Shown piece after piece: positions 1,977 to 51,082 of a stretch of 64,000 nt of DNA. A program made the translations under genes and the position numbers. This DNA is from Bacteroidales bacterium UBA5371 (GTDB lineage: Bacteria; Bacteroidota; Bacteroidia; Bacteroidales; P3), in contig DHPF01000017.1 of NCBI GenBank assembly GCA_002407855.1, forward strand, positions 74,383 through 138,382. The letters are read 5' to 3'. The stretch's first letter is position 1. Every line of letters begins with the position of its first letter. Under the pieces are notes generated by a model that did no database searches, was not told where the DNA came from, and saw only the letters and a program-made list of their open reading frames with translations.

Positions 1977-2030
1977 CTTGATTCTAATTTGCTGAAACTT
2001 GATTCTAAATTTTTAGAATTTAATTCCAAT
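1977..2030. repeat. family-A 21-bp-phased array (core CTTGATTCTAAT), 2 forward cores (1977, 1998) plus a partial inverted copy
   Basis: Direct reading; cores are exactly 21 bp apart, in the divergent intergenic region between ispB and the radical SAM gene. Confidence 0.85.
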
Positions 2031-2309
2031 TGAGCCATGATATACATTGGAATTCAGTTATAAAAGATATATTGGGGTGGTAATAATGTGTATGGGTGTG
2101 GATTTTGAACCCTTTGCCCTGAAAATTAGAAAAATTGGACTATTATTTGAGTTTTATTATCTTGGATTTTACCAATATATAAATTTATTGAGGGTTTCTT
2201 GATATATTGTCCAATTATATTTCTTGCATATTTTTAGGAGGTTAGAATAATTCTTGAAAAGAAATCTTTTTAGAAATAATATAATTTCCATTACTTTGTC
2301 ATCGTTTTT

Positions 2310-3107
2310 ATGGATATTTGCAAAAAATTACGCTATATGTTATTTGACGAAATTATATTTGGCCCCATACATAGCCGAAGGTTAGGCAATTCCTTAGGAA
2401 TTAACCTTTTGCCCTCTCATAAGAAGCTTTGTAATTTTGATTGTGTGTATTGCGAATGTGGTTGGAATAAAGACACAAAAGCTGTTAAAGACACCATTCC
2501 CAACAAAGAAGCAGTAAGAGAAGCACTTCAAAAAAGGCTTATAGAAGCTAAACAAAAGGCTATACAGATTGATTCTATAACTTTTTCAGGAAATGGAGAG
2601 CCTACCTTAAATCCTGAATTTAGTGAGATTATTGATATAGTTATTGAACTAAGAGACCTTTACGCCAAAGAGGCTAAGATTTCTGTTTTGTCTAATGCCA
2701 CTAATCTTTTGAAGGAAGATATATTTAATGCCTTGCATAAGGTTGATAATCCAATCTTAAAGATAGATGGTGGTAGCCAAAAGATGTTTTATGCCATTTC
2801 TAAGGCAAATCCAGAGCTTATAAGCTTTGAAAAGGTTAAGCAAAAACTAATTGAGTTTGGCAATAGGGCAATTATCCAAACTCTTTTGCTAAGAGGGAAA
2901 AACGAAGGTGTTGTTATTGACAACACAACCGAAGAAGAATTTGGCTTATGGCTTGAAATAGTTAAACAGATTAAGCCTCGTTCTGTTATGCTTTATGCAA
3001 TTGATAGGGTTACTCCTGAGAGTAATTTGGAGAAATTGAGCAAGGACGAATTGGAACTTTTTGCACAAAGAGTTAGAGCCTTAGGTATAGAAACTAAAAC
3101 TTATTAA
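2310..3107 (+). CDS. radical SAM protein (function unassigned)
   Basis: 265-aa ORF with CNFDCVYCEC (CxxxCxxC) cluster motif near the N-terminus. ATG at 2337 is an alternative start. Confidence 0.85.
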   Translation: MDICKKLRYMLFDEIIFGPIHSRRLGNSLGINLLPSHKKLCNFDCVYCECGWNKDTKAVKDTIPNKEAVREALQKRLIEAKQKAIQIDSITFSGNGEPTLNPEFSEIIDIVIELRDLYAKEAKISVLSNATNLLKEDIFNALHKVDNPILKIDGGSQKMFYAISKANPELISFEKVKQKLIEFGNRAIIQTLLLRGKNEGVVIDNTTEEEFGLWLEIVKQIKPRSVMLYAIDRVTPESNLEKLSKDELELFAQRVRALGIETKTY

Positions 3108-3114
3108 TTGGCAT

Positions 3115-4257
3115 ATGGTATCGGTTTCAACTACTCGGAAAATAGACTCTGTTTTAACACATAAGTTCTGGGGCTATGTGTTTTTAGCCTTTGTTATTTG
3201 GCTAATGTTTTACACCACATTTTATATTGGTGAATACCCAATGCAATGGATGCAAGCAGGCTTCGATTGGTTAAGTGAAGTTTCTCACAATAACCTTCCA
3301 AATGGATTAATCTCCGATTTAGTGTCTTATGGCATAATTCAAGGCGTTGGGGGTGTTGCAATATTTTTGCCAAACATCATTATACTCTTTTTCTTTATCT
3401 CTTTAATGGAAGCAACTAACTATATGTCAAGAGTGGCTTGGCTTATGGATAACTTAATGCACCGTATTGGATTGCACGGAAAGAGTTTTGTCCCAATGAT
3501 TATGGGATTTGGTTGTAATGTTCCAGCAATTTTGGCAACACGTTCAATTGAGAACAAAAAAGATAGGCTTTTGACAATGCTTATTATTCCTTTTATGTCC
3601 TGCTCTGCAAGATTGCCTGTTTACATTCTTTTGATTGGGACTTTCTTTCCTAAATATCCTGTGCTTGTGCTTTGTATTTTGTATTTGTTTGGTGTTTTGC
3701 TTGCGGTTGTGTTTGCAATTGTGTTCAAAAGAACCATAGCAAAAACTCTTAGTACTGACTATGAAATACTCCTTCCTCAATATAGAATTCCAACTTGGAG
3801 AAGTATTAAACCGGTTATCTGGTTCAACACAAAGGATTATTTAAAAAAGATAGCAGGAATTGTGCTTATTGCATCAATAATCATTTGGTTCTTGTTCAAT
3901 TTCCCTAATCCTCACGAGACAGGTGATAGTTTCATCTCCTATATCGGTAAATTTATCGAACCTATTCTTTTACCTTTGGGCTTTGATTGGAAAATGGGCA
4001 TAGGGCTTTTGGCAGGGGTAAGTGCAAAAGAACTTATTGTTAGCACTCTTAGTGTTTTAGAACCAACGTTTACCGTTGCTTCGGCTGCAAGTTTCTTAGC
4101 CTTTGTATTGGTTTACTTCCCTTGCATTGCCGTTTTTGCTGTGGTTTGGAAAGAAAGCGGAAAACTCCTTTGGGCAATATTCCTTGCTCTTTATACAACT
4201 ATTTTAGCATGGATTTTAGCCTTTATTGTCTATAATATTGCTTTATGGATAGTTTAA
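3115..4257 (+). CDS. FeoB-type ferrous iron permease, membrane domain only (no GTPase domain)
   Basis: 380-aa polytopic ORF colinear with the FeoB transmembrane part (KSFVPMIMGFGCNVPAI, PFMSCSARL, VYFPCIAV). It begins at the point where the FeoB TM region begins. There is no G1-G5 GTPase sequence upstream. Confidence 0.8.
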   Translation: MVSVSTTRKIDSVLTHKFWGYVFLAFVIWLMFYTTFYIGEYPMQWMQAGFDWLSEVSHNNLPNGLISDLVSYGIIQGVGGVAIFLPNIIILFFFISLMEATNYMSRVAWLMDNLMHRIGLHGKSFVPMIMGFGCNVPAILATRSIENKKDRLLTMLIIPFMSCSARLPVYILLIGTFFPKYPVLVLCILYLFGVLLAVVFAIVFKRTIAKTLSTDYEILLPQYRIPTWRSIKPVIWFNTKDYLKKIAGIVLIASIIIWFLFNFPNPHETGDSFISYIGKFIEPILLPLGFDWKMGIGLLAGVSAKELIVSTLSVLEPTFTVASAASFLAFVLVYFPCIAVFAVVWKESGKLLWAIFLALYTTILAWILAFIVYNIALWIV

Positions 4258-6424: not shown

Positions 6425-6445
6425 AGCGTAATAATCAATTCCCCT

Positions 6446-7178: not shown

Positions 7179-8777
7179 ATGTTTAAGAAAGTTCCTCACA
7201 CTTATGTTATTATTTTTGGCTTGATTGTTCTGGCCGCTATTGCAACTTGGTTTGTGCCTGCGGGAGAATTTTTAAGAGAACCTCAAACTACCGAAAGTGG
7301 AAAAGTAATTAACGGAGTGGTTAGTGGCTCTTATGAAAGGGTGGAGCAAGCTCCGCAAACTTGGCAAATAATGTCGGCTTTCTTTAAGGGGTTTCAAAAG
7401 GCTCCTGCTATAATTGCTTTCCTGCTTATTTTGGGTGGGGCGTTTTGGATTTTGAACGAAACAAAGGCCATTGATATGGGAGTACAATCCTTCTTAAATC
7501 GTAGCAATAAATTAGAAAGGTTTCGTTTCCTTAGATGGATTGGAGTAAATAATCTTATAATTATTCTGATTATGGTTATGTTCTCTGCCTTTGGAGCTAT
7601 ATTCGGAATGAGCGAAGAGACAATTGCTTTTGTGGTTATCTTTGTGCCTCTGGCTATAAGTATGGGTTACGATTCTATTGTGGGAGTTTGTATGTGTTTT
7701 TTAGCAGCAGGATTGGGTTTTGCTGGATGTGTATTGAACCCTTTCACGCTCGGAATTGCACAAGATATTGCAGGAATTAAGATGTTTAGCGGAATAGAGT
7801 ATAGGTTGGTGATGTGGGTTATTATAACAGGGATTGGAATTGCTTATGTTTTGTGGTATGCTAAAAGGGTTAGAAAAAACCCTTCTAAATCTATAATGTA
7901 TGAGGAAGATGAGCATTGGAGAAAAAACCAAAGCTCAGCCGAAAAACTTGTGGCTTCAAAGGCAAACAAAGGAACCTGGCTTTCGTATATTCTTAGCTCT
8001 ATAACTTTGATTGCATATACTATTTACATTGGAATTAATTCAGAAAGCTTCCGTGGAGGGCTTACAACATACATACTGCTTTTAGTTTTAACTCTTCTTT
8101 TTATTCTTGTGGGTTATAAGATGCTCAAAAAATCCATTCAGATGTTTTGTTTGGCAATTCTAATCTTTACTATTATCTATTTGGTTGTGGGAGTTATGGT
8201 TTTTGAATGGGATTTCGTTCATATTGCAGCCCTGTTCTTTGCTATGGCAATACTATCGGGAATAGCTTTGGGCAAAGATGCCTCGGAGATATCCAAACTC
8301 TTTATCGCCGGTGCTAAGGATATGCTTTCGGCTGCCTTGGTTGTGGGATTGGCAAGTGGGATTATAGTGATTTTGGAAGACGGAAAAATTATTGATACCT
8401 TCCTTAACTCTGTTGCAACTTCAATTGATGGCTCTGGAAAGGTTGGAGCTTTGAGTTTGATGTATGGATTCCAGTCTATTTTAAACGCAATCATAACTTC
8501 TGGAACGGCAAAGGCTGCAATGCTTATGCCTATGTTTCGAGAGATAGCAATAATGGTTGATATTCCTTTGCAATCGGCCGTTACGGCGTTTCATATTGGG
8601 GATGGTTTTACTAATTTAATTACTCCTACATCGGGGGTTTTGATTGCTGTTTTGGGCTTAGCCAAAATCCCTTATGCCAAGTGGGTGAAATGGTCTTGGA
8701 AGTTTATTCTGGCAATGGTTATCTTGGGCTGGGCTTTGCTCTTACCAACAGTTCTAATGGAACTCCCAGGGTTTTAG
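7179..8777 (+). CDS. YfcC/DcuC-type anaerobic C4-dicarboxylate/basic amino acid carrier family membrane protein
   Basis: 532-aa polytopic membrane ORF; overall resemblance to the YfcC family by eye. Confidence 0.75.
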   Translation: MFKKVPHTYVIIFGLIVLAAIATWFVPAGEFLREPQTTESGKVINGVVSGSYERVEQAPQTWQIMSAFFKGFQKAPAIIAFLLILGGAFWILNETKAIDMGVQSFLNRSNKLERFRFLRWIGVNNLIIILIMVMFSAFGAIFGMSEETIAFVVIFVPLAISMGYDSIVGVCMCFLAAGLGFAGCVLNPFTLGIAQDIAGIKMFSGIEYRLVMWVIITGIGIAYVLWYAKRVRKNPSKSIMYEEDEHWRKNQSSAEKLVASKANKGTWLSYILSSITLIAYTIYIGINSESFRGGLTTYILLLVLTLLFILVGYKMLKKSIQMFCLAILIFTIIYLVVGVMVFEWDFVHIAALFFAMAILSGIALGKDASEISKLFIAGAKDMLSAALVVGLASGIIVILEDGKIIDTFLNSVATSIDGSGKVGALSLMYGFQSILNAIITSGTAKAAMLMPMFREIAIMVDIPLQSAVTAFHIGDGFTNLITPTSGVLIAVLGLAKIPYAKWVKWSWKFILAMVILGWALLLPTVLMELPGF

Positions 8778-8899
8778 AATAGGATTTAGAGAAACTCAAA
8801 TCAAGTTCTAAAAAATTAAAGTCAAGTTTTAAAAATTTAGAATCAAGTTCCAAGAAATTAGAATCAAGTTCCAAGAAATTATAATCAAATACTAATTTA
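8774..8899. repeat. family-A array, 6 reverse-orientation units (TTAGAATCAAG-type) at 8774, 8795, 8816, 8837, 8858, 8879
   Basis: Exact 21-bp spacing. The first unit contains the TAG stop of the YfcC-like gene. Confidence 0.9.
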
Positions 8900-8950
8900 G
8901 CTTTAAAGTAAGTTTTAGACCTAAAACTTTGCATATCAAAATTTAAATTG

Positions 8951-9397: not shown

Positions 9398-9468
9398 GTT
9401 CAAGATATTTCAAAGAGTATATTTCAATGCTTAATTTGATGGGGAAAAATTTTAAACCCTCAAAAAAA

Positions 9469-9665
9469 GTCCCAATGCCTATTGAAAAGAACCCCAATGC
9501 CTATTGAAATTTTTTCTAAGGCCGTTTAAAATATTTCTAACGGCGTTGAAGAGAGTTCCAATGCTCGTTGAAAAAAATCCAAACGCCTGTTGAAATAAAT
9601 TTCAATAGGCATTGAAAATAATTCTGATAGGCATTGGGATTATTTTCAATAGGCATTAGAATTTT
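9469..9665. repeat. family-B 22-bp-phased array (core CAATGCCTATTGAAA): about 6 forward then 3 reverse units
   Basis: Two near-perfect units at 9469 and 9491, decayed units to 9599, a palindromic junction TTGAAATAAATTTCAA, then TTTCAATAGGCATT copies at 9600, 9622, 9644. Confidence 0.85.
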
Positions 9666-9741
9666 TTTCTGGGGATTGCACATACTTAAAATTGGATAAA
9701 GGGATATAAAGTGTTAGAATTGAAGGGTTTTATCAAGCTTT

Positions 9742-17872: not shown

Positions 17873-17930
17873 GTTATTTCGCAAAAGGCAAACTCCTAAA
17901 AATTAATTTCATAAATTATGATTATTGGAA

Positions 17931-18000
17931 CTTGATTCTAATTTTTTGTCTTTTGATTCTAATAAATTGTAATCAAGAGATAATTTTTTAGAATCAAGTT
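17931..18000. repeat. family-A array, 2 forward cores (17931, 17952) facing 2 reverse cores (17967, 17988)
   Basis: 21-bp spacing within each half; symmetric head-to-head arrangement. Confidence 0.85.
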
Positions 18001-18079
18001 TTAGAGTAAGGTCTGATTGTTTTAAATCACTAATCCGACATTAATCCATTTGGTTTGTAGGTTTTAAGGATTTTTATTG

Positions 18080-18087
18080 TAATTTTG
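18080..18087 (+). promoter_or_regulatory. -7 promoter box TAATTTTG upstream of deaD
   Basis: TAnnTTTG match 28 nt upstream of the ATG at 18115. The track start TTG at 18085 lies inside this box. Confidence 0.55.
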
Positions 18088-18114
18088 CAGATTAATATTA
18101 CTAATAAAATTTAT

Positions 18115-24501: not shown

Positions 24502-24544
24502 ATTATAACCCTGTCTTTGGCTAAAAAATAGACTGCATTTATCT

Positions 24545-24625
24545 CTTGATTCTAATTTTCTATCTTTTGATTCTAATTTATTAAAACTTGATTCTAATTT
24601 CCTGTCTTTTGATTCTATTTTTAGG
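24545..24625. repeat. family-A array, 4 forward units at 24545, 24566, 24587, 24608
   Basis: Exact 21-bp spacing of (C/T)TTGATTCTAAT cores. Confidence 0.9.
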
Positions 24626-31056: not shown

Positions 31057-31211
31057 TTGAATTTTCCTATTTAATTAAAATCCTTGCAAAATAACGCAAA
31101 AAAATTAACTTATTATATAGTTTTCTTTTGAAATCAGATTTTAATTTTATTGAATCAAGATGTTGTTTTACGGAATTAGAGTTAATTTTTGCTCTCTGCA
31201 AGTATAAATAC

Positions 31212-31252
31212 TGCAACTCCTAAGAATGCGGGCTACATCCTTAGGAGTTGCA
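31212..31252 (-). terminator. 13-bp perfect stem / 15-nt loop hairpin, possible terminator or small structured RNA
   Basis: TGCAACTCCTAAG (31212-31224) pairs with CTTAGGAGTTGCA (31240-31252). It lies downstream of the minus-strand lipoprotein gene and is flanked by family-A repeat pairs. Confidence 0.4.
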
Positions 31253-31261
31253 AAAATGAAA

Positions 31262-31330
31262 CTTGATTTCAGAAAAATGAAACTTGATTTTAATTTTTTA
31301 GAATCAAAGAAGAATTAATTAGAACTTAGT
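31262..31330. repeat. family-A array, 2 forward cores (31262, 31283) facing 2 reverse cores (31298, 31319)
   Basis: 21-bp spacing within each half; somewhat degenerate cores (CTTGATTTCAG, CTTGATTTTAAT, TTAGAATCAAAG, TTAGAACTTAG). Confidence 0.8.
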
Positions 31331-31366
31331 TTTAATAATGTGAAATTAAATTGGCTTGATTTCTCA

Positions 31367-31756
31367 TTAATTATTGCGCTGGTAAATAAGAACCTTGCTA
31401 TTGTAATCTATATTAAATTCTTGACAAATGCTTTCTCCAACAAAGCCTCCTCCGTTACATAAAACCTCACCCTTGCAAGAATGTAGAACATAAAGCATAT
31501 TTGGGCTATCGGAATCTAATTCTACAATAAAACCTATTTGATTGGTTTTATAGACACATCTATATATTTTGGGATTAGAAGCATCATATTCAGGAGAATT
31601 AAATTCGTTTACCTTGGCTTTTAGCCATGCTAAATCTGTTAAAGGATTTTCAAAAACGCATCCTGTTTGGCTTGAATTGTTGTTATTATCTTGCTCTTTA
31701 CAACCTAAAACAAAGAAACAACATAGAACAACTAATGATAAAACTGTTTTCTTCAT
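31367..31756 (-). CDS. small Cys-rich lipoprotein, hypothetical
   Basis: ATG at 31756 gives MKKTVLSLVVLCCFFVLGC (lipobox). The track start at 31795 is a TTG upstream of the promoter box. Confidence 0.6.
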   Translation of the reverse strand: MKKTVLSLVVLCCFFVLGCKEQDNNNNSSQTGCVFENPLTDLAWLKAKVNEFNSPEYDASNPKIYRCVYKTNQIGFIVELDSDSPNMLYVLHSCKGEVLCNGGGFVGESICQEFNIDYNSKVLIYQRNN

Positions 31757-31783
31757 AATATTCTTTTTTAAATTAATAATAGG

Positions 31784-31791
31784 CAAATTTA
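31784..31791 (-). promoter_or_regulatory. -7 promoter box TAAATTTG upstream of lipoprotein gene
   Basis: Plus strand reads CAAATTTA 28 nt upstream of the start at 31756. Confidence 0.5.
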
Positions 31792-31850
31792 GCAATTAAA
31801 TATTAATACCCAAAATTATAGTTATTGAATTTAACTAAAACAGAATTATA

Positions 31851-35703: not shown

Positions 35704-35742
35704 TTCATTAAATTCTCCATTGCTTATTTCGTTTTGGTAGCT

Positions 35743-35823
35743 TTTGATTTCGCTGAAATATCTCTTGATTCTAATTTATTATCTTTTGATTCTAATTTAT
35801 TGAAACTTGATTCTAATTTTGCT
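35743..35823. repeat. family-A array, 4 forward units at 35743, 35764, 35785, 35806
   Basis: Exact 21-bp spacing. 35785-35819 is identical to 39309-39343. Confidence 0.9.
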
Positions 35824-39227: not shown

Positions 39228-39287
39228 CTACTTTATTTTAAAGCATAATGAATTATAGCTTAAAAAATAGCTCTGAGTATTCCAAGA

Positions 39288-39371
39288 TTTGATTCTGAAT
39301 TATTGGAATTTGATTCTAATTTATTGAAACTTGATTCTAATTTGTTGGGATTTGATTCTAATTTACTGAAA
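39288..39371. repeat. family-A array, 4 forward units at 39288, 39309, 39330, 39351
   Basis: Exact 21-bp spacing of TTGATTCT(A/G)AAT cores. Confidence 0.9.
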
Positions 39372-39468: not shown

Positions 39469-40278
39469 TCATCTATTAAGAATAAAACTGACCAAATTAT
39501 CTTTCAATCTGCTCCCTCCTATTCTAAAATACTTAGAGTTTAACCTTTGACTTCCCCTAAAATGAGAGAATAATATGTGATATTCTATCGCCTGCTCAGC
39601 TGTTACAATACCTCCTGCGGCTTTAATAGATTTAAGAATTTTTGTTTGATTTTCATAATCTTCAATGGCTTTTAGCATTACTGCAAATGAGTAAATATCA
39701 GCTCCTTTGCTTGTTTTACCGGTTGAAGTTTTAATAAAATCGGCTCCTGCCTCTAAGTTGATAAGGCTTGCCTTGTATACATTTTCTAAGGAGTTTAGCT
39801 CTCCTGTTTCCAAAATAACCTTTAAGGTAATGTCTTTGCAGATTTGCTTTGCTAAGAATGTTTCTTGTGAAACTTCATCAAATTTCCCTTCTAAGAAAAG
39901 CCCTCTATTCATTACAATATCTACTTCCTCCGCACCATTATCAATAGCAAATTTGATTTCATTTAGTTTGAGCTCTATGGGATTTTGTCCTGAAGGAAAA
40001 TATCCTGCAACAACAACCTTTTTTATATCTTTATCCAGCGTATTATTAAGTAATGGCAGGAAATTTGGATAAACACAAAGTCCTGCAACCTTTATATTTT
40101 CTAACTCTTTAATGTGAGAATTTTCTATAAGCTTTCTAATTGAATTCGCATTATCTTCCGAATTTAGAGATGTGAGGTCTAAGCATCTTAAACAATTAAT
40201 TGCAGCATCTTTTCTATTTATAGTTTCTTTTCCCTCTTTAAGGATATTATCAATAATGTTTTTATCTATTTGAATCAT
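39469..40278 (-). CDS. deoC: deoxyribose-phosphate aldolase
   Basis: Schiff-base lysine motif FIKTSTGK. ATG at 40278 is preferred over the TTG at 40314. Overlaps the upstream gene by 17 nt. Confidence 0.85.
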   Translation of the reverse strand: MIQIDKNIIDNILKEGKETINRKDAAINCLRCLDLTSLNSEDNANSIRKLIENSHIKELENIKVAGLCVYPNFLPLLNNTLDKDIKKVVVAGYFPSGQNPIELKLNEIKFAIDNGAEEVDIVMNRGLFLEGKFDEVSQETFLAKQICKDITLKVILETGELNSLENVYKASLINLEAGADFIKTSTGKTSKGADIYSFAVMLKAIEDYENQTKILKSIKAAGGIVTAEQAIEYHILFSHFRGSQRLNSKYFRIGGSRLKDNLVSFILNR

Positions 40279-41425
40279 GCTGGATGTATTGTTGTGAGAA
40301 GTTGGTTTTGGCAAATTGAGGTATATGTCTTGAAGTATGAATATTCTTTTTCAGTATTAGTTTAAATAATAAGTCCTTTTTCCAAGCTGCTTTATTTAAT
40401 TTCTTTCTTTTGATTAAATGTTTTTTGATTAGTTTTATCTTATATCTATCCTTGAAGTCAATATTTTTAGTCTCAAAAATAATATTCCTATTGGCAATAA
40501 TCAAATCTGTTATTGGTATATTCATTGGGCAAATCTTATTGCAATTACCACAAAGAACACAATTAAAACATAAATGCTTGGCTCCATCTATTGTTTCTAA
40601 AAATGGCAATACAACATTAGCCATTGGTCCTGTAAATACATTATTATACGGAGCATCTCCTATCAAAGCATAGATAGGGCAAACCTTTTTGCATGCATCA
40701 CAATCAATACAAGTAAGAGCTTTTCTATGTTCTTTATAATCTAATAGATTACTCCTGCTATTATCTATTATAAATAGTTCAATATTATTTGCCGAATTCT
40801 TTTTAGGAGTTAAGATGGTTGATAAATTTAAAAGTGAAGTTTTGTTTTTATTTATTGAATATAGTGTTGAGAAGAGTTCAATGTCTTCAATATTTTTAAG
40901 GATATTATTAATTGGAAGTACAAATATTTTATACTCTGCTGAAAGAACTAATTCCATTTCTAAAGCAGAGTCAAATACTAAATACAAACTACCTGTTTGA
41001 GCAATTGCATATTTAGCTTCAAAAATAACGCATTCTTTTGATTGAGTATTTATTTGTATTTCGTCTTCTTTAAGGTTTTTATATAGGCCCAATTCTTCCA
41101 TGAATCTACTTTCAAATAAATTAACCTCTTTTATTTTTTTCTCTCTTAAAAACTTTAATAAATCTTCAAAGAACAAATCATAATCTATTTCCCAATTGAC
41201 CTCTGCTTCATTTTCAACAAATTTCTTATCAAATAATACTAATAATTCATCTATATGATTAATGTATTTTTGTCTTAGATTTGCTGCCCTTTTCTTAACA
41301 TAGTTATAGTTTTTAAAGGTTTTAAGCACAATATCATCAATATTGTAAGAAATATCAATATCTTTTGGTTTTTCTAAGGCTCGTTTACAATCGGAGATAA
41401 AGAATTTATACTCATTTGTATTCAT
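40262..41425 (-). CDS. LUD-domain / 4Fe-4S dicluster protein (LutB/YkgF-like)
   Basis: 387 aa with two ferredoxin-type motifs (CIDCDACKKVCP, CVLCGNCNKICP) after a LUD-like N-terminal half. Confidence 0.7.
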   Translation of the reverse strand: MNTNEYKFFISDCKRALEKPKDIDISYNIDDIVLKTFKNYNYVKKRAANLRQKYINHIDELLVLFDKKFVENEAEVNWEIDYDLFFEDLLKFLREKKIKEVNLFESRFMEELGLYKNLKEDEIQINTQSKECVIFEAKYAIAQTGSLYLVFDSALEMELVLSAEYKIFVLPINNILKNIEDIELFSTLYSINKNKTSLLNLSTILTPKKNSANNIELFIIDNSRSNLLDYKEHRKALTCIDCDACKKVCPIYALIGDAPYNNVFTGPMANVVLPFLETIDGAKHLCFNCVLCGNCNKICPMNIPITDLIIANRNIIFETKNIDFKDRYKIKLIKKHLIKRKKLNKAAWKKDLLFKLILKKNIHTSRHIPQFAKTNFSQQYIQHDSNR

Positions 41426-41458
41426 TACAAGAAAGTATTATTTTATAATAAAGTATAT

Positions 41459-41908
41459 TTATAATAGTATGGATATTTTTTCTACTCTTCTTTGATGTCT
41501 GCCACCTTCATAAAGAGTGTTTAGAAATGTTTCAGCTATTTTTAACCCTTCTTCTTCTGTTATAAACCTTGCTGGTAAAGCACAAATATTTGCATTATTA
41601 TGTTGGCGTGCTAATATTGCTATTTCTTCTTTCCAACATAAAGCAGCTCTAACTTTTGAATACTTATTAGCAGTCATTTGAACACCATTACCACTTCCAC
41701 ACATAATTAATCCAATTTCATAAACTCCTTCATTAATGTCTTTTGATAAAGGATGAATATAATCAGGATAATCACAACTATCTTTTGAAAATGTTCCATA
41801 ATCTTTAAATTTATATCCTTTTTTAGAGAGATTTTCTTTTAGGAATTCTTTTAAATCATATCCTGCGTGATCGGAAGCTATAGGAATAATTTTTGAATTA
41901 ATTGTCAT
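41459..41908 (-). CDS. rpiB: ribose-5-phosphate isomerase B
   Basis: 149 aa; RpiB/LacAB family layout (ASDHAGYDLK, CGSGNGV). Confidence 0.9.
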   Translation of the reverse strand: MTINSKIIPIASDHAGYDLKEFLKENLSKKGYKFKDYGTFSKDSCDYPDYIHPLSKDINEGVYEIGLIMCGSGNGVQMTANKYSKVRAALCWKEEIAILARQHNNANICALPARFITEEEGLKIAETFLNTLYEGGRHQRRVEKISILL

Positions 41909-41986
41909 ATTGTTTATAACTTTTAATTGGTTAATACTTCTATTATTTTATTTATTTATTTGATTTTAAAGCTTATTAAATAAAAG

Positions 41987-41994
41987 CAAAGATA
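41987..41994 (-). promoter_or_regulatory. -7 promoter box TATCTTTG upstream of rpiB
   Basis: Plus strand reads CAAAGATA about 80 nt upstream of the start at 41908. Confidence 0.4.
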
Positions 41995-42404
41995 GTATAT
42001 ATTTTACAACTATTTTAATTTCAAAGCTAAAAGTTTTAACATATAAATTGTTTATATCTATCTTTTTTTGTTGAAAATTTGTTTATCAAATTAATATCAT
42101 TTAATTTTGTTGAAAAATTATGAGATTATAAAGAAGTTATAAAGATGATTATTCACAGAAAAATAATAAATAATATAAATTAGTTTTCAACAAAATTACT
42201 TATTAGTATATTTGTTAGTAAGTATATAAATTAACTAATAATAAGTTTATTATAGTATAATATTTTATTAATAACTTCTTTATAAACTATATATTTTAAG
42301 AAAACAAAAAATAAGTTAGTTTAGTTTTTAACTCAATTAACAGGCTATTATTATAATCATATTTATATAAAAGTAATTATTAAATATATAAAGAAAAAAT
42401 AAAG

Positions 42405-43352
42405 ATGAATACAAAAGAGACAATTCAAAAGATATTAAAGCTTAAAAAGAAAAAGAATGCAATTATATTAGCACATTTTTACCAGATACCAGAAATACAA
42501 GATATAGCGGATTTTGTTGGTGATAGTTTGAATTTAGCACAAAAAGCAAAGGACACAGAATCTGACCTTATACTATTTTGTGGAGTGCATTTTATGGGAG
42601 AAACAGCAAAAATACTTAATCCTAAAAAGAAAGTTATTATACCAGATATGGATGCAGGTTGCTCCTTAGCAGACTCATGCCCAGAGGAAGACTTTAAAAA
42701 ATTCAAAGAACAATATCCAAATCACATAGTTATTTCATATATAAATTGTAGTGCAAAGATAAAAACATTATCTGATATGATATGTACGTCAGGAAATGCT
42801 TTACAATTAGTTAATTCATTACCAAAAGATCAGAAGATTATTTTTGCTCCTGACAAAAACTTAGGAGGTTACCTTAATAGAATAACTGGTAGAGATATGG
42901 TTCTTTGGGATGGAACCTGCGAGGTACACGAGTTATTAACAGCAGAATACACTCTCAAACAAAAAAAATCTCATCCTGATTATCTCTTAATTGCACATCC
43001 AGAATGTAATGATGCAGTGCTTCAAATTGCAGATTATGTTGGTTCAACAGCAGGAATGATTAACTTTGTAAAAGGTCATAATCATAAAAAGTTTTTAGTT
43101 GCAACCGAATCAGGAATTGTTTATAAATTAAAGAAGGATAATCCAGACAAAGATTTCATAGTAGTAACCCAAGATGAAACTTGCTCATGTAATGATTGCA
43201 GGTATATGAAATTAAATACTCTTGATAAGGTTTTAGCTTCATTGGAAGAAGAAAAATATGAAATTATACTTGACGATAAATTAATTGAAGAGGCTAAAAA
43301 ACCAATTATAAAAATGCTTGACCTTTCAAGAGAACTTGGAATAATAAAATAA
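42405..43352 (+). CDS. nadA: quinolinate synthase
   Basis: 315 aa; full-length NadA-like sequence (ILAHFYQ, GVHFMGETAKIL, three conserved Cys regions). Confidence 0.9.
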   Translation: MNTKETIQKILKLKKKKNAIILAHFYQIPEIQDIADFVGDSLNLAQKAKDTESDLILFCGVHFMGETAKILNPKKKVIIPDMDAGCSLADSCPEEDFKKFKEQYPNHIVISYINCSAKIKTLSDMICTSGNALQLVNSLPKDQKIIFAPDKNLGGYLNRITGRDMVLWDGTCEVHELLTAEYTLKQKKSHPDYLLIAHPECNDAVLQIADYVGSTAGMINFVKGHNHKKFLVATESGIVYKLKKDNPDKDFIVVTQDETCSCNDCRYMKLNTLDKVLASLEEEKYEIILDDKLIEEAKKPIIKMLDLSRELGIIK

Positions 43353-43643
43353 TGGATTATTAGTATTAAAATTTGAAATTACTCAAAAAGGATATAAAAA
43401 ATTAATATTAATATTTTAACATTTAAATTATAATAAACATCTTAATAATAGCTAAATAACTTTACTAAATTATAATTTAGAGAGTGTTTTTTAACATTCT
43501 GAGCAAAAAAAAATCATAAAGAAGACCAAGAATACTCATATAATAGTTAATAAATCTTAATTTTATATTGGTGTAATAAAATAGAATCAAATTCTATTTT
43601 TTAAATAGTCTAATATAAAAAGAAAATGAAGTTTTAAAATCTA

Positions 43644-44255
43644 ATGACTAAAAAAATTATTATAACAATAATTCTGATTTTCTTTTTCAAAATTTCCTTC
43701 TCTCAAAACTTTAAAGAGATTTTTCTTAATATGGATTGCAGAGATAAAGTATGGATAATTACAAGACCCTCAACAGCCATAAAGACAAAAAAGATTGCAA
43801 AACAAGTATCTAAATTATCAAGTAATTATCAAAAAGACAAATATTCTGAGTCCACTAGCTACGACCAAGAACAAGATATATTTAGGCATATTTTTTTAAT
43901 GTACAAACTCTCTTCTAAAATAGGGATTGATAAATCAAGAAGAATTGGAGATATATACGAGAGATATAATGAGAATATTTTTTATAAAAAATCTAATTCT
44001 GGATACGATAAGGCAGGAGAAATGATGGATAAATTCAATAACGAAATTGGATTATATCTATTTATGAAATTAGGAAAAGTACATGATGAAATAATAATAC
44101 AAGAAATTGGGAATCAGATAAAAGAAGGAAACGCAAGAAAAATAAAGAAAGATTCTAAAAACAGTAGTTTAACAATTGATAACAAGATAATTAAAGATAG
44201 TATTTGGAAGAAAAATTGGGAAAATGAGAGAGTTTTAATCCAATCTAACAAATAA
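43644..44255 (+). CDS. hypothetical secreted protein
   Basis: 203 aa with signal peptide. The DIFRHIFLMY segment is reminiscent of D-x-FRH motifs in DUF6973-type proteins (weak). Confidence 0.5.
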   Translation: MTKKIIITIILIFFFKISFSQNFKEIFLNMDCRDKVWIITRPSTAIKTKKIAKQVSKLSSNYQKDKYSESTSYDQEQDIFRHIFLMYKLSSKIGIDKSRRIGDIYERYNENIFYKKSNSGYDKAGEMMDKFNNEIGLYLFMKLGKVHDEIIIQEIGNQIKEGNARKIKKDSKNSSLTIDNKIIKDSIWKKNWENERVLIQSNK

Positions 44256-45970: not shown

Positions 45971-46279
45971 AATATAAAATATTTATTAATTAGAAATCAA
46001 TGATTTAAAGTATAAAACATCTAATATTTAGATTATATTTTTATAAATCTTTCTTATCCCAATACTTCTAAAAGCCTTATTTTCCACTTGTGTTTATTAG
46101 GTTCATTTTCTATTTATTTTGCAGAAAAAGAGTACTTTATAAGTATAACGAGGCAAAGATAGACTTTGTTTCAGTTTGAACCAAATATTTTTGTAAATAA
46201 TTTTAGATAAAGGTTTTCAGGGATTTAAAAATTTGTATTTGAAAATAGTGAATTAGAATAAAGATATAGGAAATTATCT

Positions 46280-46342
46280 TTTGATTCTAAGAAATTAAAT
46301 CTTGATTCTAATTTTTTCTCTTTTGATTCTAATTTTTCAGTT
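46280..46342. repeat. family-A array, 3 forward units at 46280, 46301, 46322
   Basis: Exact 21-bp spacing. Confidence 0.9.
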
Positions 46343-46354
46343 TACTTTTTAATA

Positions 46355-46417: not shown

Positions 46418-46432
46418 TAGCTTGATTTTAAG

Positions 46433-46454: not shown

Positions 46455-46480
46455 GTATGAATTTTAATTAATAGAAAATT

Positions 46481-48475: not shown

Positions 48476-48551
48476 AACTATTTACTATTAATAGTTTACA
48501 TAACTTGTTTCATATGAAACTCTAAGTAAGTGGTAGTAGAATTATAGATAT

Positions 48552-49067
48552 ATGAAAAGATGGTTTGCTCTTTATGTTCAGTCAAGAAAAGAAAAGGTTG
48601 TTGAAAGAGAGCTATTGAAAGATGGTTACGAAGTTTATCTACCAATAAAGAAAGAGCTAAGACAATGGAAAGATAGGAAGAAAGTGGTAGAGATGCCATT
48701 GATTTCTTCATATATATTCACATATATTGAAGAAAATGATATGTGGGATATTGTTAGAAAGAGCGGTTGCATTAAGTTTATTTGGTTTAATGGTAAGCCT
48801 TGTCCCATTCCTGATAATCAAATAGAATCTATAAAACTACTATTAGCAAAAGATATTGATATAGAATTTGACAATCAAATCCAACTCACCAAAGGCAATA
48901 AAGTTAGAATAGTTGAGGGAGCATTTGCAGGGTTAGTTGGGATAATTAAACATAAAGAAGGTAAGAGTAATTTTGCAGTAAGAATAGATGCCTTAGCAAT
49001 AGACTTAACCATAACATTAGATAAATCAAACCTTCATTTAGTTGAAGCTATATCGGAAGAAAATTAA
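48552..49067 (+). CDS. UpxY-family (NusG-like) transcription antiterminator
   Basis: 171 aa with NGN-type N-terminus WFALYVQSRKEK and KOW motif GNKVRIVEGAFAGLVGII. Confidence 0.78.
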   Translation: MKRWFALYVQSRKEKVVERELLKDGYEVYLPIKKELRQWKDRKKVVEMPLISSYIFTYIEENDMWDIVRKSGCIKFIWFNGKPCPIPDNQIESIKLLLAKDIDIEFDNQIQLTKGNKVRIVEGAFAGLVGIIKHKEGKSNFAVRIDALAIDLTITLDKSNLHLVEAISEEN

Positions 49068-49108
49068 AGATACAATAATATTAAAATAAAATTAAACCTA
49101 AAATTATC

Positions 49109-50881
49109 ATGAAACAATTTTTTAAATTTATGTTCGCTTCTTGCTTAGGAGTGTTCTTATCCACAGTATTAGTAATAATACTCCTTTTTGCTATAGGAAC
49201 TTCAATTATAAGCTCCTCAACCAAGAGTGTTCCTAAAATAGAAGAAAACTCAGTCTTAGTTATAAAATTAGACAAACCTATTTACGACAGGGAAGTGTCT
49301 GATTTCTCTGCTTTGTTTACCCAAAGCCAAGAAGATATTGATATTAGTGCATCAATAGGGCTAACAGAGTTTATTTCAGTAATAAATAAGGCTAAAACAG
49401 ACCCAAAAATCAAAGCTATAATGTTAGATTTATCTTATCTTCAAGCTAAAGGTTGGGCAACTGTTCAAGAAATGAGAGATGCCTTAGTTGATTTTAAAAC
49501 ATCTAAGAAAAAGATATATGCTTTTTCCGATAGCTATTCTCAAAACGCATATTATCTTGCAACCGTAGCAGATCAAATCTCTCTTAATCCAGTTGGAAAT
49601 TTACAATTAACAGGGCTTGGAGGGCAGGTTATGTTCGTAAAAGACCTTTTGAATAAGTTTGAAATAGATGTTGAACTCATACGTCCTGCCAATAACGATT
49701 ACAAAAGTGCAGGCGAAATGTTTGTAAACAGCAAGATGAGTGAAGCCAATAGAACACAAGTTAAGGCATATATCGGTTCCATTTGGGAATATATTGCAAA
49801 TGATATGTCTCAATCAAGAAAGATAGATATTGCAACTTTCAATAATAATGTATCTAATCTTGAAACCTTTATTGCAGCAGATGCTTTAAAGAACAAATAT
49901 GTTGATAACCTAACTTTTAGAACTGATTTGCAAGATAAAATCAAGAAAGATTTGAAATTGGAAAAAGTTAATTGGGTTCAATATAAGAAGTATAGAAGTT
50001 CAATAGTTGATATAATGCCAAAGGGTAAAGACCAAATAGCAGTAATTTATGCTTTTGGCGATGTTGGACAAGGTAAAGGTGGAGATTTGTCTATTGGGAG
50101 TGAAACAATAGTAAGAGAACTAAAAAGAGCGACAGATAATAGTAGGGTTAAAGCCATTGTCCTTAGAATTAATTCTGGTGGAGGCGATGCAATAGCTTCT
50201 GAACAAATGACAAATGAAGTAATAAAAGCTAATAAAATAAAGCCTGTTATTGTTTCAATGGGTGATGTTGCAGCCTCAGCAGGCTATGAAATGGCTTGCG
50301 GAGCAACAAAGATTGTTGCTAATCCAACAACCATTACAGGTTCAATAGGAGTCTTTGGAGTGGTTCCAAACTTTGGCAAAGCATTGAAAAAAAGCATAGG
50401 AATAGGATTTGACACTATTCAAACAAACAAAAATTCAATCTTCCTATCAGCCGTATCACCTATGTCCTCAGACACAAGAATAGTTATGCAAAGGAGTATA
50501 GATGAGTTCTATAAGAACTTTGTTAATAGGGTTGCAACAGGAAGAAACAAAACAGAGCAGTATATAGATAGCGTTGCAAAAGGTAGGGTTTGGTCAGGCA
50601 AAGACGCAAAGGCATTAGGTTTGATTGATGAATTTGGAGGCTTGAACAAAGCAATAGAAATTGCAGCTAAGGAGGCTAAAATCAAGGACTATGGAATAAT
50701 TCCTCTTCCACGAACAAAAGATATAACAGAGCAAATATTTAGTGCAATGGGACAGGAAGCTGAGTTAAAGCTTTTTGCTAAAAACTTAGGTAAACCATAT
50801 TCTTTCTTCTTAGAACTTAAAAGCATTTCCGACATGAAAGGTGTTCAAGCGAGAATACCTTATATAATTAGTTTTGAATAA
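49109..50881 (+). CDS. sppA: signal peptide peptidase SppA, 67K type
   Basis: 590 aa with N-terminal TM and two S49 peptidase repeats. Confidence 0.88.
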   Translation: MKQFFKFMFASCLGVFLSTVLVIILLFAIGTSIISSSTKSVPKIEENSVLVIKLDKPIYDREVSDFSALFTQSQEDIDISASIGLTEFISVINKAKTDPKIKAIMLDLSYLQAKGWATVQEMRDALVDFKTSKKKIYAFSDSYSQNAYYLATVADQISLNPVGNLQLTGLGGQVMFVKDLLNKFEIDVELIRPANNDYKSAGEMFVNSKMSEANRTQVKAYIGSIWEYIANDMSQSRKIDIATFNNNVSNLETFIAADALKNKYVDNLTFRTDLQDKIKKDLKLEKVNWVQYKKYRSSIVDIMPKGKDQIAVIYAFGDVGQGKGGDLSIGSETIVRELKRATDNSRVKAIVLRINSGGGDAIASEQMTNEVIKANKIKPVIVSMGDVAASAGYEMACGATKIVANPTTITGSIGVFGVVPNFGKALKKSIGIGFDTIQTNKNSIFLSAVSPMSSDTRIVMQRSIDEFYKNFVNRVATGRNKTEQYIDSVAKGRVWSGKDAKALGLIDEFGGLNKAIEIAAKEAKIKDYGIIPLPRTKDITEQIFSAMGQEAELKLFAKNLGKPYSFFLELKSISDMKGVQARIPYIISFE

Positions 50882-50999
50882 GAAATAAACAACTTATTTC
50901 AAGCTTTACCCAAAAGGATAGCTTGGTGTTATTTTTTATATTGTGTATTTTAGAAAAACACATTAAATAATTGTGGCGTAGAGTTTAAATAAAAATAAA

Positions 51000-51082
51000 T
51001 TAGAACTTAGTTTTACGGATTTAGAACTTGATTCCAATTAGACAGAACTAAGTTCTAATTTTACCAAACTAAGTTCTATTCA
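51000..51082. repeat. family-A variant array (core CTAAGTTCTAAT / TTAGAACTTAG): 2 reverse (51000, 51021) facing 2 forward (51048, 51069)
   Basis: 21-bp spacing within each half; located between convergent sppA and queG. Confidence 0.8.

What the first reader, a model, noticed from the sequence alone, without database searches (positions are those of the whole stretch)
1977..51082. Dispersed intergenic repeat family (core TTGATTCTAAT, 21-bp period) marking nine operon boundaries in 64 kb
Arrays of 2-6 units occur at 1977-2030, 8774-8899, 17931-18000, 24545-24625, 31262-31330, 35743-35823, 39288-39371, 46280-46342, and as a variant core CTAAGTTCTAAT at 51000-51082. Within an array the cores are spaced exactly 21 bp apart: about 12 nt are conserved and about 9 nt vary. 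All loci are intergenic and none lies inside a credible gene. Most sit 40-260 bp upstream of a TAnnTTTG promoter box, but orientation relative to the flanking genes is not constant, and one locus lies between convergent genes. Every core contains GATTC (a GANTC site) plus in-phase TGA and TAA triplets. I do not recognise this as a named repeat family (REP/BIME, ERIC, BOX, Correia, MIRU).
Basis: seen in the sequence. Interest (0 to 1): 0.65.

Follow-up and report, generated by a model that had tools for sequence, protein, structure and literature searches.

The report
Two-turn phased intergenic repeat arrays
An uncultured Bacteroidales bacterium carries roughly a hundred or more short arrays of a 21-bp repeat between its genes; the 11-14 bp core is identical in distant relatives, which suggests that an unidentified DNA-binding protein lines up on one face of the helix at most gene-cluster boundaries.

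Summary
The core TTGATTCTAAT occurs 15 times exactly (0.21 expected) and 28 times with at most one mismatch (6 expected). Of those 28 hits, 25 lie in nine intergenic arrays, and same-strand neighbours are exactly 21 bp apart. The unit is Y-R-N3-Y-TTGATTCTAAT-TT-N2.

- **Host and abundance:** the window is ordinary Bacteroidales chromosome from digester and fermentation metagenomes. K-mer depth puts one two-unit junction at about 85-110 copies per genome, so the family is genome-wide.
- **Conservation:** the same core at the same 21-bp phase sits in intergenic arrays of ten other Bacteroidales MAG species with local GC from 23% to 56%. Spacers are lineage-specific and the core is invariant, which implies selection by a trans-acting factor.
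- **What it is not:** the arrays have no leader, tail, terminal inverted repeats or target-site duplications, no RNA structure, no credible ORF and no neighbouring transposase.
- **Dynamics:** copy number varies between strains and species. Syntenic sister species lack the family and carry other 21-23-bp arrays with different cores at the same sites.

Best reading (0.45): helically phased binding-site arrays for an unknown dsDNA-binding protein that evolve like minisatellites. Main rival: REP- or MITE-like selfish repeats. It is a new variant of bacterial interspersed repeats, and the function is untested.

The parts
1930..2040 (+). Array 1. Two good units (cores at 1978 and 1999) with decayed units at 1936 and 2020. 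Lies in the divergent gap between the polyprenyl synthetase gene (-) and the radical SAM gene (+).
8784..8900 (-). Array 2. Five units on the minus strand (cores at 8878, 8857, 8836, 8815, 8794). Starts at the stop codon of the DcuC-like gene and lies upstream of the small gene at 8948/8987.
17926..18003 (.). Array 3. Two direct units (17932, 17953) followed by two inverted units (17966, 17987). Forms a perfect 2+2 inverted duplication (RNA fold -32 kcal/mol, z = -8.3). Lies between the FAD-dependent protein gene and the DEAD-box helicase gene.
24540..24625 (+). Array 4. Four units (24546, 24567, 24588, 24609), 39 bp after the ABC transporter stop and 175 bp upstream of the conserved promoter box of the carboxyltransferase gene. 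The orthologous site is empty in sister locus L046 and holds an unrelated repeat in L045.
31257..31335 (.). Array 5. Two direct units (a decayed one at 31263 and one at 31284), one inverted unit (31297) and one inverted variant unit (31318). Lies between the stop of the gene at 31367-31795 (-) and a 19-bp-stem hairpin at 31211-31253.
35738..35823 (+). Array 6. Three perfect units (35765, 35786, 35807) plus a decayed unit at 35744. It fills most of a 145-bp gap between two minus-strand genes. Its unit order and spacers nearly match array 4.
39283..39371 (+). Array 7. Four units (39289, 39310, 39331, 39352) between two minus-strand genes (aminotransferase and DeoC-like aldolase).
46247..46342 (.). 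Array 8. One inverted decayed unit (46252) plus three direct units (46281, 46302, 46323). Lies in a divergent gap, 68 bp upstream of a TAnnTTTG box for the urocanase gene.
50995..51085 (.). Array 9. A mixed array of the variant core CTAAGTTCTAAT (50999-, 51048+, 51069+) and one TTGATTCCAAT unit (51028+). Lies between the convergent SppA and QueG genes.
43574..43596 (-). Solo unit TAGAAT-TTGATTCTATT in the 291-bp gap between the NadA gene and the DUF6973 gene. This is the only intergenic unit found outside an array.

Best explanation
**What it is.** This is a high-copy, lineage-restricted family of intergenic arrays. Each array is 2-6 tandem copies of a 21-bp unit, Y-R-N3-Y-TTGATTCTAAT-TT-N2. 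Twenty-one bp is two turns of B-DNA, so every core in an array faces the same side of the helix.

**Shown here.**
- The core is invariant while the 7-10 spacer bases differ between neighbouring units.
- The core is also invariant between genomes whose local GC ranges from 23% to 56%. In the GC-rich genomes the spacers have become GC-rich and the core has stayed AT-rich.
- Arrays are confined to non-coding gaps of every type, in either orientation.
- They lack single-strand structure, ORFs, transposon ends and partner genes.
- They gain and lose whole units between strains and species, and they have decayed units at their edges.

**Inferred.**
- The core is held constant by a trans-acting, sequence-specific double-stranded-DNA-binding protein.
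- That protein binds side by side on one face of the helix and forms a cooperative nucleoprotein complex at most boundaries between transcription units.
- The arrays themselves evolve like minisatellites, by slippage or unequal exchange plus exchange between arrays.

The identity of the protein and the consequence of binding (nucleoid organisation, insulation, transcription roadblock or modulation of neighbouring promoters) are not known.
For: **Enrichment and phasing.** Strong enrichment and exact 21-bp phasing.

**Selection on the core.** The position-wise profile shows core positions at 73-100% identity (most at 87% or above) and spacers at 30-70%, in the window, in low-GC MAGs and in high-GC MAGs alike. 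Ten other Bacteroidales MAG species carry intergenic arrays with the same core and phase.

**Abundance.** The summed k-mer depth of a two-unit junction is 17,000-19,600 against 212-218 single copy in run X1, and 1,300-1,560 against 10.8-14.2 in X5. That is about 85-110 copies per genome. It matches the 2 per 64 kb seen in the window, if the genome is about 3 Mb, which is an assumption.

**Orientation-free, as expected for duplex recognition.** Contexts are 9 divergent, 7 convergent and 18 tandem; of the tandem ones, 12 are antisense and 6 sense to the genes. Inverted units stay in the 21-bp register, because TAGAAT-TTG-ATTCTA is a 6-3-6 palindrome with an asymmetric centre.

**No single-strand structure.** Unidirectional arrays are mostly unstructured as single strands: eight of nine strand-folds give z of -1.1 to +0.8, and one (array 7, + strand) gives z = -2.8.

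**Persistence with unit turnover.** Arrays persist at orthologous sites across 84-96% nucleotide identity with changed unit number (L025 has 4 units and L035 has 5). Between strains at 99.2% identity the count is 2 against 3 units.

**Occupancy.** Eleven of the 16 gaps of at least 140 bp hold a 21-22-bp array, nine of them from this family. Arrays make up 9.9% of the intergenic bases.

**Background knowledge (not tested here).** Two-turn spacing of direct repeats with a conserved core and a variable spacer is the layout of plasmid iterons and of tandem ARG boxes, where proteins bind cooperatively on one face.
Against: - No binding protein was identified, and no candidate gene recurs next to arrays.
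- The three closest syntenic relatives (77-82% nucleotide identity) have no such array in 51 kb (Poisson p about 0.0008). Instead they carry other 21-23-bp arrays at the same intergenic sites. This patchy, fast turnover is more typical of selfish repeats than of a housekeeping regulator.
- Spacers are not free to vary. A few unit subtypes recur in many arrays, and arrays 4 and 6 share unit order. That indicates copying between loci, which a pure binding-site model does not explain.
- A sister species keeps the downstream promoter without any array, so the array is dispensable for that promoter.
Confidence: 0.45

Rival explanations
1. Selfish non-autonomous repeats, comparable to REP/RAYT elements or to MITEs. 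The conserved core would be the binding site of a transposase or recombinase encoded elsewhere in the genome. Arrays would spread to new intergenic sites in trans and then expand locally.
For: - Copy number is high and placement is strictly intergenic.
- Arrays are mildly depleted from divergent, promoter-bearing gaps: 2 of 7 against 9 of 10 gaps that hold a gene 3' end, for any 21-22-bp family (p = 0.035). From background knowledge, REPs show the same bias.
- Distribution among close relatives is patchy, with different families in sister species.
- Unit subtypes and whole-array patterns are shared between loci.
- In some lineages the unit contains a short palindrome, TAGAAT-TTG-ATTCTA, sometimes preceded by G so that it reads GTAG.
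- A different array family in sister locus L049 does share a conserved leader.
Against: - There are no terminal inverted repeats, no target-site duplication and no conserved leader or tail.
- Array edges are decayed rather than sharp.
- Most units in the window cannot form a hairpin, and the arrays are unstructured.
- No transposase lies in 84 kb of this genome or next to 33 arrays in other genomes.
- The core is identical across genomes of very different GC content while the spacers have diverged. This argues for long-term vertical constraint rather than recent spread.
Confidence: 0.25
2. Structural or neutral minisatellites. Any sequence repeated every two helical turns, with in-phase A/T tracts, gives intrinsically curved DNA. 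The arrays would then be tolerated or mildly useful curved spacers, copied between loci by recombination, with no dedicated binding protein.
For: - Several unrelated cores in the same genome and in sister genomes share the 21-23-bp period.
- Arrays with a 20-23-bp period number 14.1 per 100 kb here, 6.7 in close relatives and 0.6 in other Bacteroidales.
- Copy number varies between strains.
- Each unit carries AATTT, and often a second A-tract about 10 bp away. Curvature is an inference and was not computed.
Against: A purely structural role does not explain why 11-14 specific bases are invariant across ten other species and a 23-56% GC range while the spacers drift. It also does not explain why neighbouring units keep the core but differ in the spacer.
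Confidence: 0.12
3. An RNA-level element in untranslated regions, such as a protein-binding or stabilising motif in 3' or 5' UTRs.
For: - Several arrays lie 0-120 nt after a stop codon, and array 5 lies between a stop codon and a strong hairpin.
- Metatranscriptome contigs contain array sequence.
Against: - Units lie in either orientation relative to the flanking genes (12 antisense, 6 sense; p = 0.24), and some lie in divergent gaps.
- There is no predicted structure and no Rfam match.
- Periods of 21-23 bp fit DNA geometry.
Confidence: 0.05
4. Coding repeats. The complement of the unit reads K-L-E-S-x-x-x, a heptad, so the arrays could encode small repeat peptides or be relics of coiled-coil genes.
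For: - The same 11-mer at 21-bp spacing is truly coding in Firmicutes proteins, in two viral contigs and in the RmuC coiled coil of three Bacteroidales MAGs.
- The K-L-E-S frame is stop-free in 39 of 41 intergenic arrays.
Against: - The median stop-to-stop length is only 45 aa, and an in-frame ATG lies upstream in 6 of 41 arrays.
- The stop-free frame follows automatically from the conserved Y and R at unit positions 0 and 1.
- Conservation is at the nucleotide level, with no synonymous change even in 55% GC genomes.
- Periods of 22 and 23 bp in sister families are not multiples of three.
Confidence: 0.02

Closest known systems
BrickBuilt MITE/minisatellite of Porphyromonas gingivalis (Klein et al. 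2015, PMC4596501)
   Same: Found in the same bacterial order. It is a tandem repeat of about two helical turns (23 nt) with conserved and variable positions. It is always intergenic, dispersed, varies in copy number, and its locations are partly conserved between related species.
   Different: [quoted passage not shown] It has only 19 copies per genome and is restricted to P. gingivalis and P. gulae. The arrays here have no leader, tail, TIR or TSD, about 100 or more copies, and a core shared by ten other MAG species of very different GC content.
REP/BIME elements and their RAYT transposases (E. coli, Pseudomonas, Stenotrophomonas)
   Same: High copy number, strictly extragenic, clustered, preference for gaps that follow gene 3' ends, species-specific families, and several families per genome. 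The REP properties are from background knowledge; the properties of the arrays here are.
   Different: REPs are 20-40-nt imperfect palindromes that act as single-strand hairpins, and in BIMEs they usually alternate in orientation. Here the units are head to tail, mostly non-palindromic and unstructured. A RAYT gene could not be looked for.
Plasmid iterons (R6K, P1, pPS10, RK2) and tandem ARG boxes of ArgR
   Same: Three to seven direct repeats spaced about 21-23 bp apart, a conserved core with a variable spacer, and an occasional inverted copy. Proteins bind cooperatively on one face of the helix. The iteron and ARG-box properties are from background knowledge; the layout here is. The GAAT..ATTC arms of the TAGAAT-TTG-ATTCTA variant resemble the TGAAT-N4-ATTCA arms of an ARG box.
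   Different: Iterons sit at one origin next to a rep gene, and ARG boxes sit at a handful of arginine promoters. Here there are about a hundred or more chromosomal loci next to unrelated housekeeping genes. No rep gene is present, and no match was found in 72,556 plasmids or 50,697 phages.
MIRU-VNTR loci of mycobacteria, BOX elements of pneumococci and STRR heptamer repeats of cyanobacteria
   Same: Dispersed intergenic tandem repeats with variable unit number between strains. The properties of the named families are from background knowledge; the copy-number variation here is.
   Different: MIRU units are 40-100 bp, co-oriented with operons, and carry overlapping small ORFs. BOX elements are modular (A-Bn-C) and fold as RNA. 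STRR units are 7 bp. None of them has a 21-bp unit made of a fixed core plus a free spacer.

Membership tests
MITE (including BrickBuilt) | Terminal inverted repeats at the two ends of the element | tested here: not met
   BLAST of 200-bp flanks of all nine arrays against each other finds only 10-15-nt chance matches with no positional consistency, plus one 20-nt match at 90% identity. No shared flanks appear among 33 arrays in other genomes.
MITE (including BrickBuilt) | Target-site duplication flanking the element | tested here: not met
   There is no consistent direct repeat between the last 15 nt of the left flank and the first 15 nt of the right flank (0-6 nt, different each time). Array edges are decayed units rather than sharp ends.
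MITE (including BrickBuilt) | Conserved non-repetitive leader and tail around the tandem repeat | tested here: not met
.
REP/BIME | The unit is an imperfect palindrome able to form a stable hairpin | tested here: not met
   Eight of nine strand-folds of unidirectional or mixed arrays give z of -1.1 to +0.8, and array 7 (+ strand) gives z = -2.8. A 6-3-6 palindrome exists only in the unit subtypes that start with TAGAAT or TAGAGT.
REP/BIME | A cognate RAYT (Y1 transposase) gene in the genome, flanked by the repeats | not testable with these tools
   Only 84 kb of this genome and 8-kb windows of the others could be read, and none contains a transposase.
REP/BIME | High copy number, extragenic, clustered | tested here: met
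Plasmid or phage iterons | Direct repeats about 21-23 bp apart with a conserved core | tested here: met
Plasmid or phage iterons | Located at a replication origin next to a rep or initiator gene | tested here: not met
   The flanking genes are housekeeping genes. There are no plasmid, phage or viral-contig matches other than coding heptads. No DnaA-box cluster is present.
MIRU-type VNTR | A 40-100-bp unit, co-oriented with the operon, with a small ORF overlapping the flanking stop and start codons | tested here: not met
   The unit is 21 bp. It lies in either orientation. The open frame is not in phase with the upstream gene at array 2, as read from the sequence and the frames.
Coding heptad (coiled-coil) repeat | Lies inside a long ORF with a start codon and shows synonymous variation | tested here: not met
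   This feature is met only for the unrelated hits L002, L003, L009, L013, L037, L125 and L126.
Known RNA family (Rfam) | A match to a covariance model at the gathering score | tested here: not met
   There were 0 matches in the whole window.

The most novel reading that the evidence does not exclude
The TTGATTCTAAT family may be one member of a clade-wide system. In this Bacteroidales lineage, nearly every transcription-unit boundary would carry a two-turn-phased array whose core differs between species and sometimes between loci. Each core would be read by a matching, fast-evolving or exchangeable DNA-binding protein. The bound arrays would act as boundary elements (roadblock terminators or insulators) in genomes where canonical hairpin-plus-T terminators are no more frequent than in shuffled sequence. 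This would be a bacterial counterpart of the tandem TTF-I/Reb1 terminator boxes of eukaryotic rDNA.
Probability: 0.12. Interest if true: 0.8.

Novelty: new variant of a known kind. Interest (0 to 1): 0.55.

Why it matters
If a protein does read these arrays, it would be a major and so far unknown organiser of the chromosome or the transcriptome in a widespread group of uncultured anaerobic Bacteroidales from digesters, rumen, termite gut and groundwater. Its recognition site is already defined to the base, and there are likely hundreds of natural binding platforms per genome. Both facts make the idea directly testable by pull-down or DAP-seq.

There are also practical consequences:
- The arrays break short-read assemblies. 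Contigs end at them, and the NCBI MAG has N gaps exactly there.
- They could serve as VNTR strain markers.
- Sister species carry different cores at the same sites, which offers a natural system for studying how repeat families and their readers turn over.

Tried and rejected
- **Literature by sequence.** A full-text search for the 11-mer gave 13 irrelevant papers, mostly primers and the like. A keyword search for phased intergenic repeats in Bacteroidetes gave nothing relevant.
- **Plasmid, phage and viral origin.** The only hits are coding heptads and short chance matches.
- **Cross-phylum hits from the genome scan.** Sporosarcina and Thermobrachium are coding K-L-E-S-R-I-D repeats. The Methanovirga-labelled contig, Polaribacter, Mucilaginibacter, Winogradskyella and Anaerotignum hits are unrelated simple repeats, hairpins or two-unit matches. 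All were set aside as coincidences.
- **Partner gene.** All-against-all BLASTP of ORFs in 36 Bacteroidales loci found no protein family recurring next to arrays, apart from orthologous loci. Pfam scans of neighbouring genes found only housekeeping enzymes.
- **Metatranscriptome and strain contigs.** Logan unitigs break at the arrays, so transcript ends and empty sites could not be read. Only depth was usable.
- **GANTC methylation idea.** GANTC is not depleted.
- **Origin of replication at 57.5-58.5 kb.** There is no DnaA-box cluster.
- **Replichore-type polarity.** Orientation is 9:2 over 84 kb (p = 0.065), and other genomes have both orientations on one contig. Not supported.
- **Bacteroidetes promoter inside the unit.** TAATTTG is one base short of TAnnTTTG and the spacing to TTG does not fit. 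This was rejected on inspection of the sequence.
- **IHF, FNR and sigma-54 consensus matches.** Rejected on inspection of the sequence.

Full report
**1.
The 11-mer TTGATTCTAAT occurs 15 times exactly in the 64-kb window, against 0.21 +/- 0.43 in dinucleotide-preserving shuffles. With at most one mismatch it occurs 28 times against 5.98 +/- 2.46. Tandem Repeats Finder independently reports period-21 arrays at six of the loci. The variant core CTAAGTTCTAAT is at 50999(-), 51048(+) and 51069(+), and also at 31318(-).

In 21-bp register the unit is longer than the stated core. It reads Y-R-N3-Y-TTGATTCTAAT-TT-N2.

**2. Setting.**
The window is ordinary chromosome of a Bacteroidota organism with 33% GC. 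It contains DnaE, MnmG, Dxs, a DEAD-box helicase, urocanase, NadA, LspA and similar genes. It contains no transposase, integrase or replication-initiator gene, no tRNA and no Rfam hit.

Near-identical DNA (99.2-99.9%) is found in NCBI MAG GCA_002424135.1 and in ENA and JGI assemblies. It also occurs in fermentation, sludge, fertilizer, soil and landfill metagenome runs.

All nine arrays lie between ORFs that have Pfam support. Two are in divergent gaps, one in a convergent gap and six between co-directional genes. Eleven of the 16 gaps of at least 140 bp contain a 21-22-bp array, nine of them from this family. The family alone accounts for 9.9% of intergenic bases. Two more arrays lie in the 10-kb flanks on either side of the window.

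**3. Genome-wide abundance.**
Short-read unitigs break at the arrays. Their summed depth over the junction 35787-35814 is 17,000-19,600 against 212-218 for flanking single-copy DNA in run X1. In X5 it is 1,300-1,560 against 10.8-14.2. That gives about 85-110 copies per genome of this one two-unit junction. The window holds two copies in 64 kb. For a genome of about 3 Mb, which is an assumption, that extrapolates to about 90. The density seen here is therefore probably genome-wide.

**4. The family in other genomes.**
A scan of 185,579 species genomes for two exact cores 21 bp apart returned 44 loci.
- Eight of them are coincidences. Two are Firmicutes coding heptads that read K-L-E-S-R-I-D. 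The other six are unrelated simple repeats, hairpins or two-unit matches in a contig labelled Methanovirga and in Polaribacter, Mucilaginibacter (two loci), Winogradskyella and Anaerotignum.
- Three Bacteroidales hits lie in the coiled coil of an RmuC gene.
- The remaining 33 loci come from ten Bacteroidales MAG species. All are intergenic arrays with the same core and the same 21-bp phase. One further array of the family was found in a metagenome contig, L048.

The local GC of these loci runs from 23% to 56%. In the GC-rich genomes the unit is (C/T)AG(C/A)GT-TTGATTCTAAT-TTGC. The spacer has taken on the GC content of the genome and the core has not.

Within arrays, adjacent units share the core but often differ in spacer. 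This differential conservation, within arrays and across distant genomes, is the main evidence that the core is recognised by a trans-acting factor.

**5. What it is not.**
- **Not a MITE of the BrickBuilt type.** BrickBuilt is defined by a leader, a tail and IS5-like terminal inverted repeats around a 23-nt minisatellite. Here the flanks share nothing beyond short chance matches, mostly 10-15 nt, there is no consistent target-site duplication, and the edges are decayed units.
- **Not a hairpin element.** Eight of nine strand-folds of unidirectional or mixed arrays are no better than shuffles (z of -1.1 to +0.8). The exception is the + strand of array 7 (z = -2.8). Array 3, a 2+2 inverted duplication, folds strongly (z = -8.3).
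- **Not a gene.** The complement reads K-L-E-S-x-x-x and is stop-free in 39 of 41 arrays. That follows automatically from the conserved Y and R at unit positions 0 and 1. Stop-to-stop frames have a median of 45 aa, and only 6 of 41 have an upstream in-frame ATG.
- **Not an iteron set of a plasmid or phage**.
- **Not tied to one RNA strand.** Units are sense to the flanking genes in 6 co-directional contexts and antisense in 12. They also occur in 9 divergent and 7 convergent gaps.
- **No recurring neighbour.** No partner gene recurs next to arrays.

**6. Dynamics.**
- Arrays persist at orthologous sites between MAG species whose flanks are 84-96% identical, with gain or loss of whole units. 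L025 has four units and L035 has five.
- Between strains at 99.2% identity, one array has two units in one strain and three in the other.
- Some arrays are runs of identical 21-mers (L007, L030, L042), which indicates local tandem duplication.
- A small vocabulary of unit subtypes (TGAAAC, TATCTY, TAGAAT, TGTAAT and others) recurs across loci. Arrays 4 and 6 share both unit order and spacers. So there is also copying or exchange between loci.

The three syntenic sister loci (L045, L046 and L049) show 77-82% nucleotide identity over the aligned part of window 18-29 kb. They have no TTGATTCTAAT array in 51 kb, where about seven would be expected (p about 0.0008).

At the site of array 4, L046 has a short gap with no array. 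L045 has an unrelated repeat containing CCGAC. L047 and L049 have an extra gene. The 150 bp that carry the carboxyltransferase promoter are conserved in all of them.

At the site of array 3, the sister loci carry three-unit arrays with 22-23-bp periods and other cores (AAAGATGTACATCTTT and CAGATGGGCATCTTAGC).

**7. A wider pattern.**
The window itself holds other arrays with a 21-22-bp period and different cores. They are at 9466-9669, 57686-57880, 58030-58320 and 58352-58436, and all are single-locus.

Non-heptameric arrays with a 20-23-bp period occur at 14.1 per 100 kb in the window, 6.7 in the ten closest relatives and 0.6 in 70 more distant Bacteroidales loci. These loci were chosen through a gene, not through a repeat.

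Periods of 21, 22 and 23 bp fit two helical turns. They do not fit codon periodicity.

**8. Relation to promoters and terminators.**
A strict TAnnTTTG box lies between the array and a downstream start codon for 4 of 9 arrays in the scan. Counting the box at about 8951, upstream of the ATG at 8987, makes it 5 of 9. Because arrays also sit in convergent and intra-operon gaps, and because a promoter survives without its array, the arrays are not promoter components.

Canonical hairpin-plus-T terminators are no more frequent than in shuffles (16 against 12.0, 12 against 13.7, and 7 against 10.4).

Arrays of any 21-22-bp family occupy 9 of 10 gaps of at least 100 bp that contain a gene 3' end, but only 2 of 7 divergent gaps (Fisher p = 0.035). 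Two readings fit this bias: avoidance of promoter regions by a selfish element, or a boundary function.

**9. Interpretation.**
Shown:
- a high-copy, helically phased, orientation-free, duplex-type repeat with a core under long-term constraint;
- minisatellite-like unit turnover;
- a patchy distribution among close relatives.

Inferred: a sequence-specific double-stranded-DNA-binding protein that binds cooperatively on one face of the helix. The closest mechanistic analogues, from background knowledge, are iterons and tandem ARG boxes.

The evidence does not say whether that protein is a host nucleoid or regulatory factor or the enzyme of a mobile element. I put 0.45 on the host-factor platform reading and 0.25 on the selfish REP- or MITE-like reading. 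The structural, RNA and coding readings get smaller weights.

**10. Novelty.**
Dispersed intergenic repeats are a known kind of feature. This architecture is not any named family that I could test against. It has a 21-bp unit made of an invariant 11-14-bp core plus a free spacer, arranged head to tail, with no hairpin, no transposon ends, roughly a hundred or more loci per genome, and a core shared across GC-divergent genomes. No paper in the searched library describes it.

Noticed in passing
window 9466-9669: A separate array with a 22-bp period. It has six direct and then three inverted units with the core CCAATGCCTATTGAAA (near-palindrome CAAT-N4-ATTG). It lies between convergent genes. The layout matches the main family but the core is different, and it occurs at a single locus in the window.
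   Followed up: partly
window 57532-58506: A 975-bp non-coding gap packed with four different arrays. (1) 4 x ATTTATTGGGCGAACACATTG plus inverted copies. (2) An 11-bp CCAAAAAACAA-type periodic stretch. (3) GGTTCCGTTAAAAAACGCTCA, five direct units plus inverted copies. (4) A 42-bp repeat present twice. The first array has 4 units here and 3 in strain ERZ724022. There is no DnaA-box cluster, so this is probably not oriC.
   Followed up: partly
whole window: GATC occurs only 23 times and CTAG only 3 times in 64 kb. The GATC count is about a tenth of the rough base-composition expectation (about 195, my own estimate). This suggests a GATC-directed restriction system or some other selection. GANTC is not depleted.
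   Followed up: no
window 31211-31253 (-): The only convincing intrinsic-terminator-like hairpin in 60 kb (19-bp stem). It lies immediately downstream of array 5. Terminator-like sites overall are no more frequent than in shuffled sequence.
   Followed up: partly
L129 1832-1961 and L131 5008-5122 (NCBI GCA_002424135.1, contig DIPV01000049.1): The public MAG has runs of N exactly at array 2 and at the GGGCGAACAC array, and short-read unitigs end at every array. These repeats fragment assemblies of this organism.
   Followed up: yes
L049 2480-2625 and 14050-14210: In a sister species, two arrays of a different family (core GATG[TG][AG]CATCTTAGC, 22-bp period) share a conserved upstream leader (CCTAAAACGCCGTATTAAA ... 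CATTTT). That family may be MITE-like even though the TTGATTCTAAT family is not.
   Followed up: no
L009 3600-3694, L013 4875-4969, L037 2008-2102: The same 11-mer at 21-bp spacing lies inside the N-terminal coiled coil of an RmuC gene (ELESNYRKLESRYSE) in three Bacteroidales MAGs. It was treated as a coincidence of AT-rich codon use for K-L-E-S heptads. An origin by in-frame capture of an array was not excluded.
   Followed up: partly
unit positions 0, 1 (all arrays): The two semi-conserved spacer positions (Y then R at the start of each unit) are exactly the positions that make one frame of the complementary strand unable to contain a stop codon. This frame reads K-L-E-S-x-x-x. It is not known whether this is chance, a DNA-flexibility signal (a YR step) or selection for an open frame.
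   Followed up: partly
L006 3702-3852; L016 3519-3632 and 3940-4017; L026 867-1089, 1354-1431, 1671-1739 and 2538-2630; L036 1814-1882: In the GC-rich MAGs, the gaps that hold arrays also hold other dispersed repeats. One is a promoter-like GCGAAATACCAAATTTATTTGAGTATTTC block. Another is a REP-like palindrome, GTGACGGGT...ACCCGTCAC. Their positions relative to the arrays are not fixed.
   Followed up: no
window 40001-44000: A local GC minimum (25% against 33% elsewhere) around the 497-bp divergent gap at 41909-42404, which holds AT-rich simple repeats but no array.
   Followed up: no
window 48552-49067: A stand-alone NusG-family paralogue of 171 aa that matches only the NusG N-terminal domain. 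It lies between the urocanase and SppA genes and may be a specialised antiterminator of the UpxY type.
   Followed up: no
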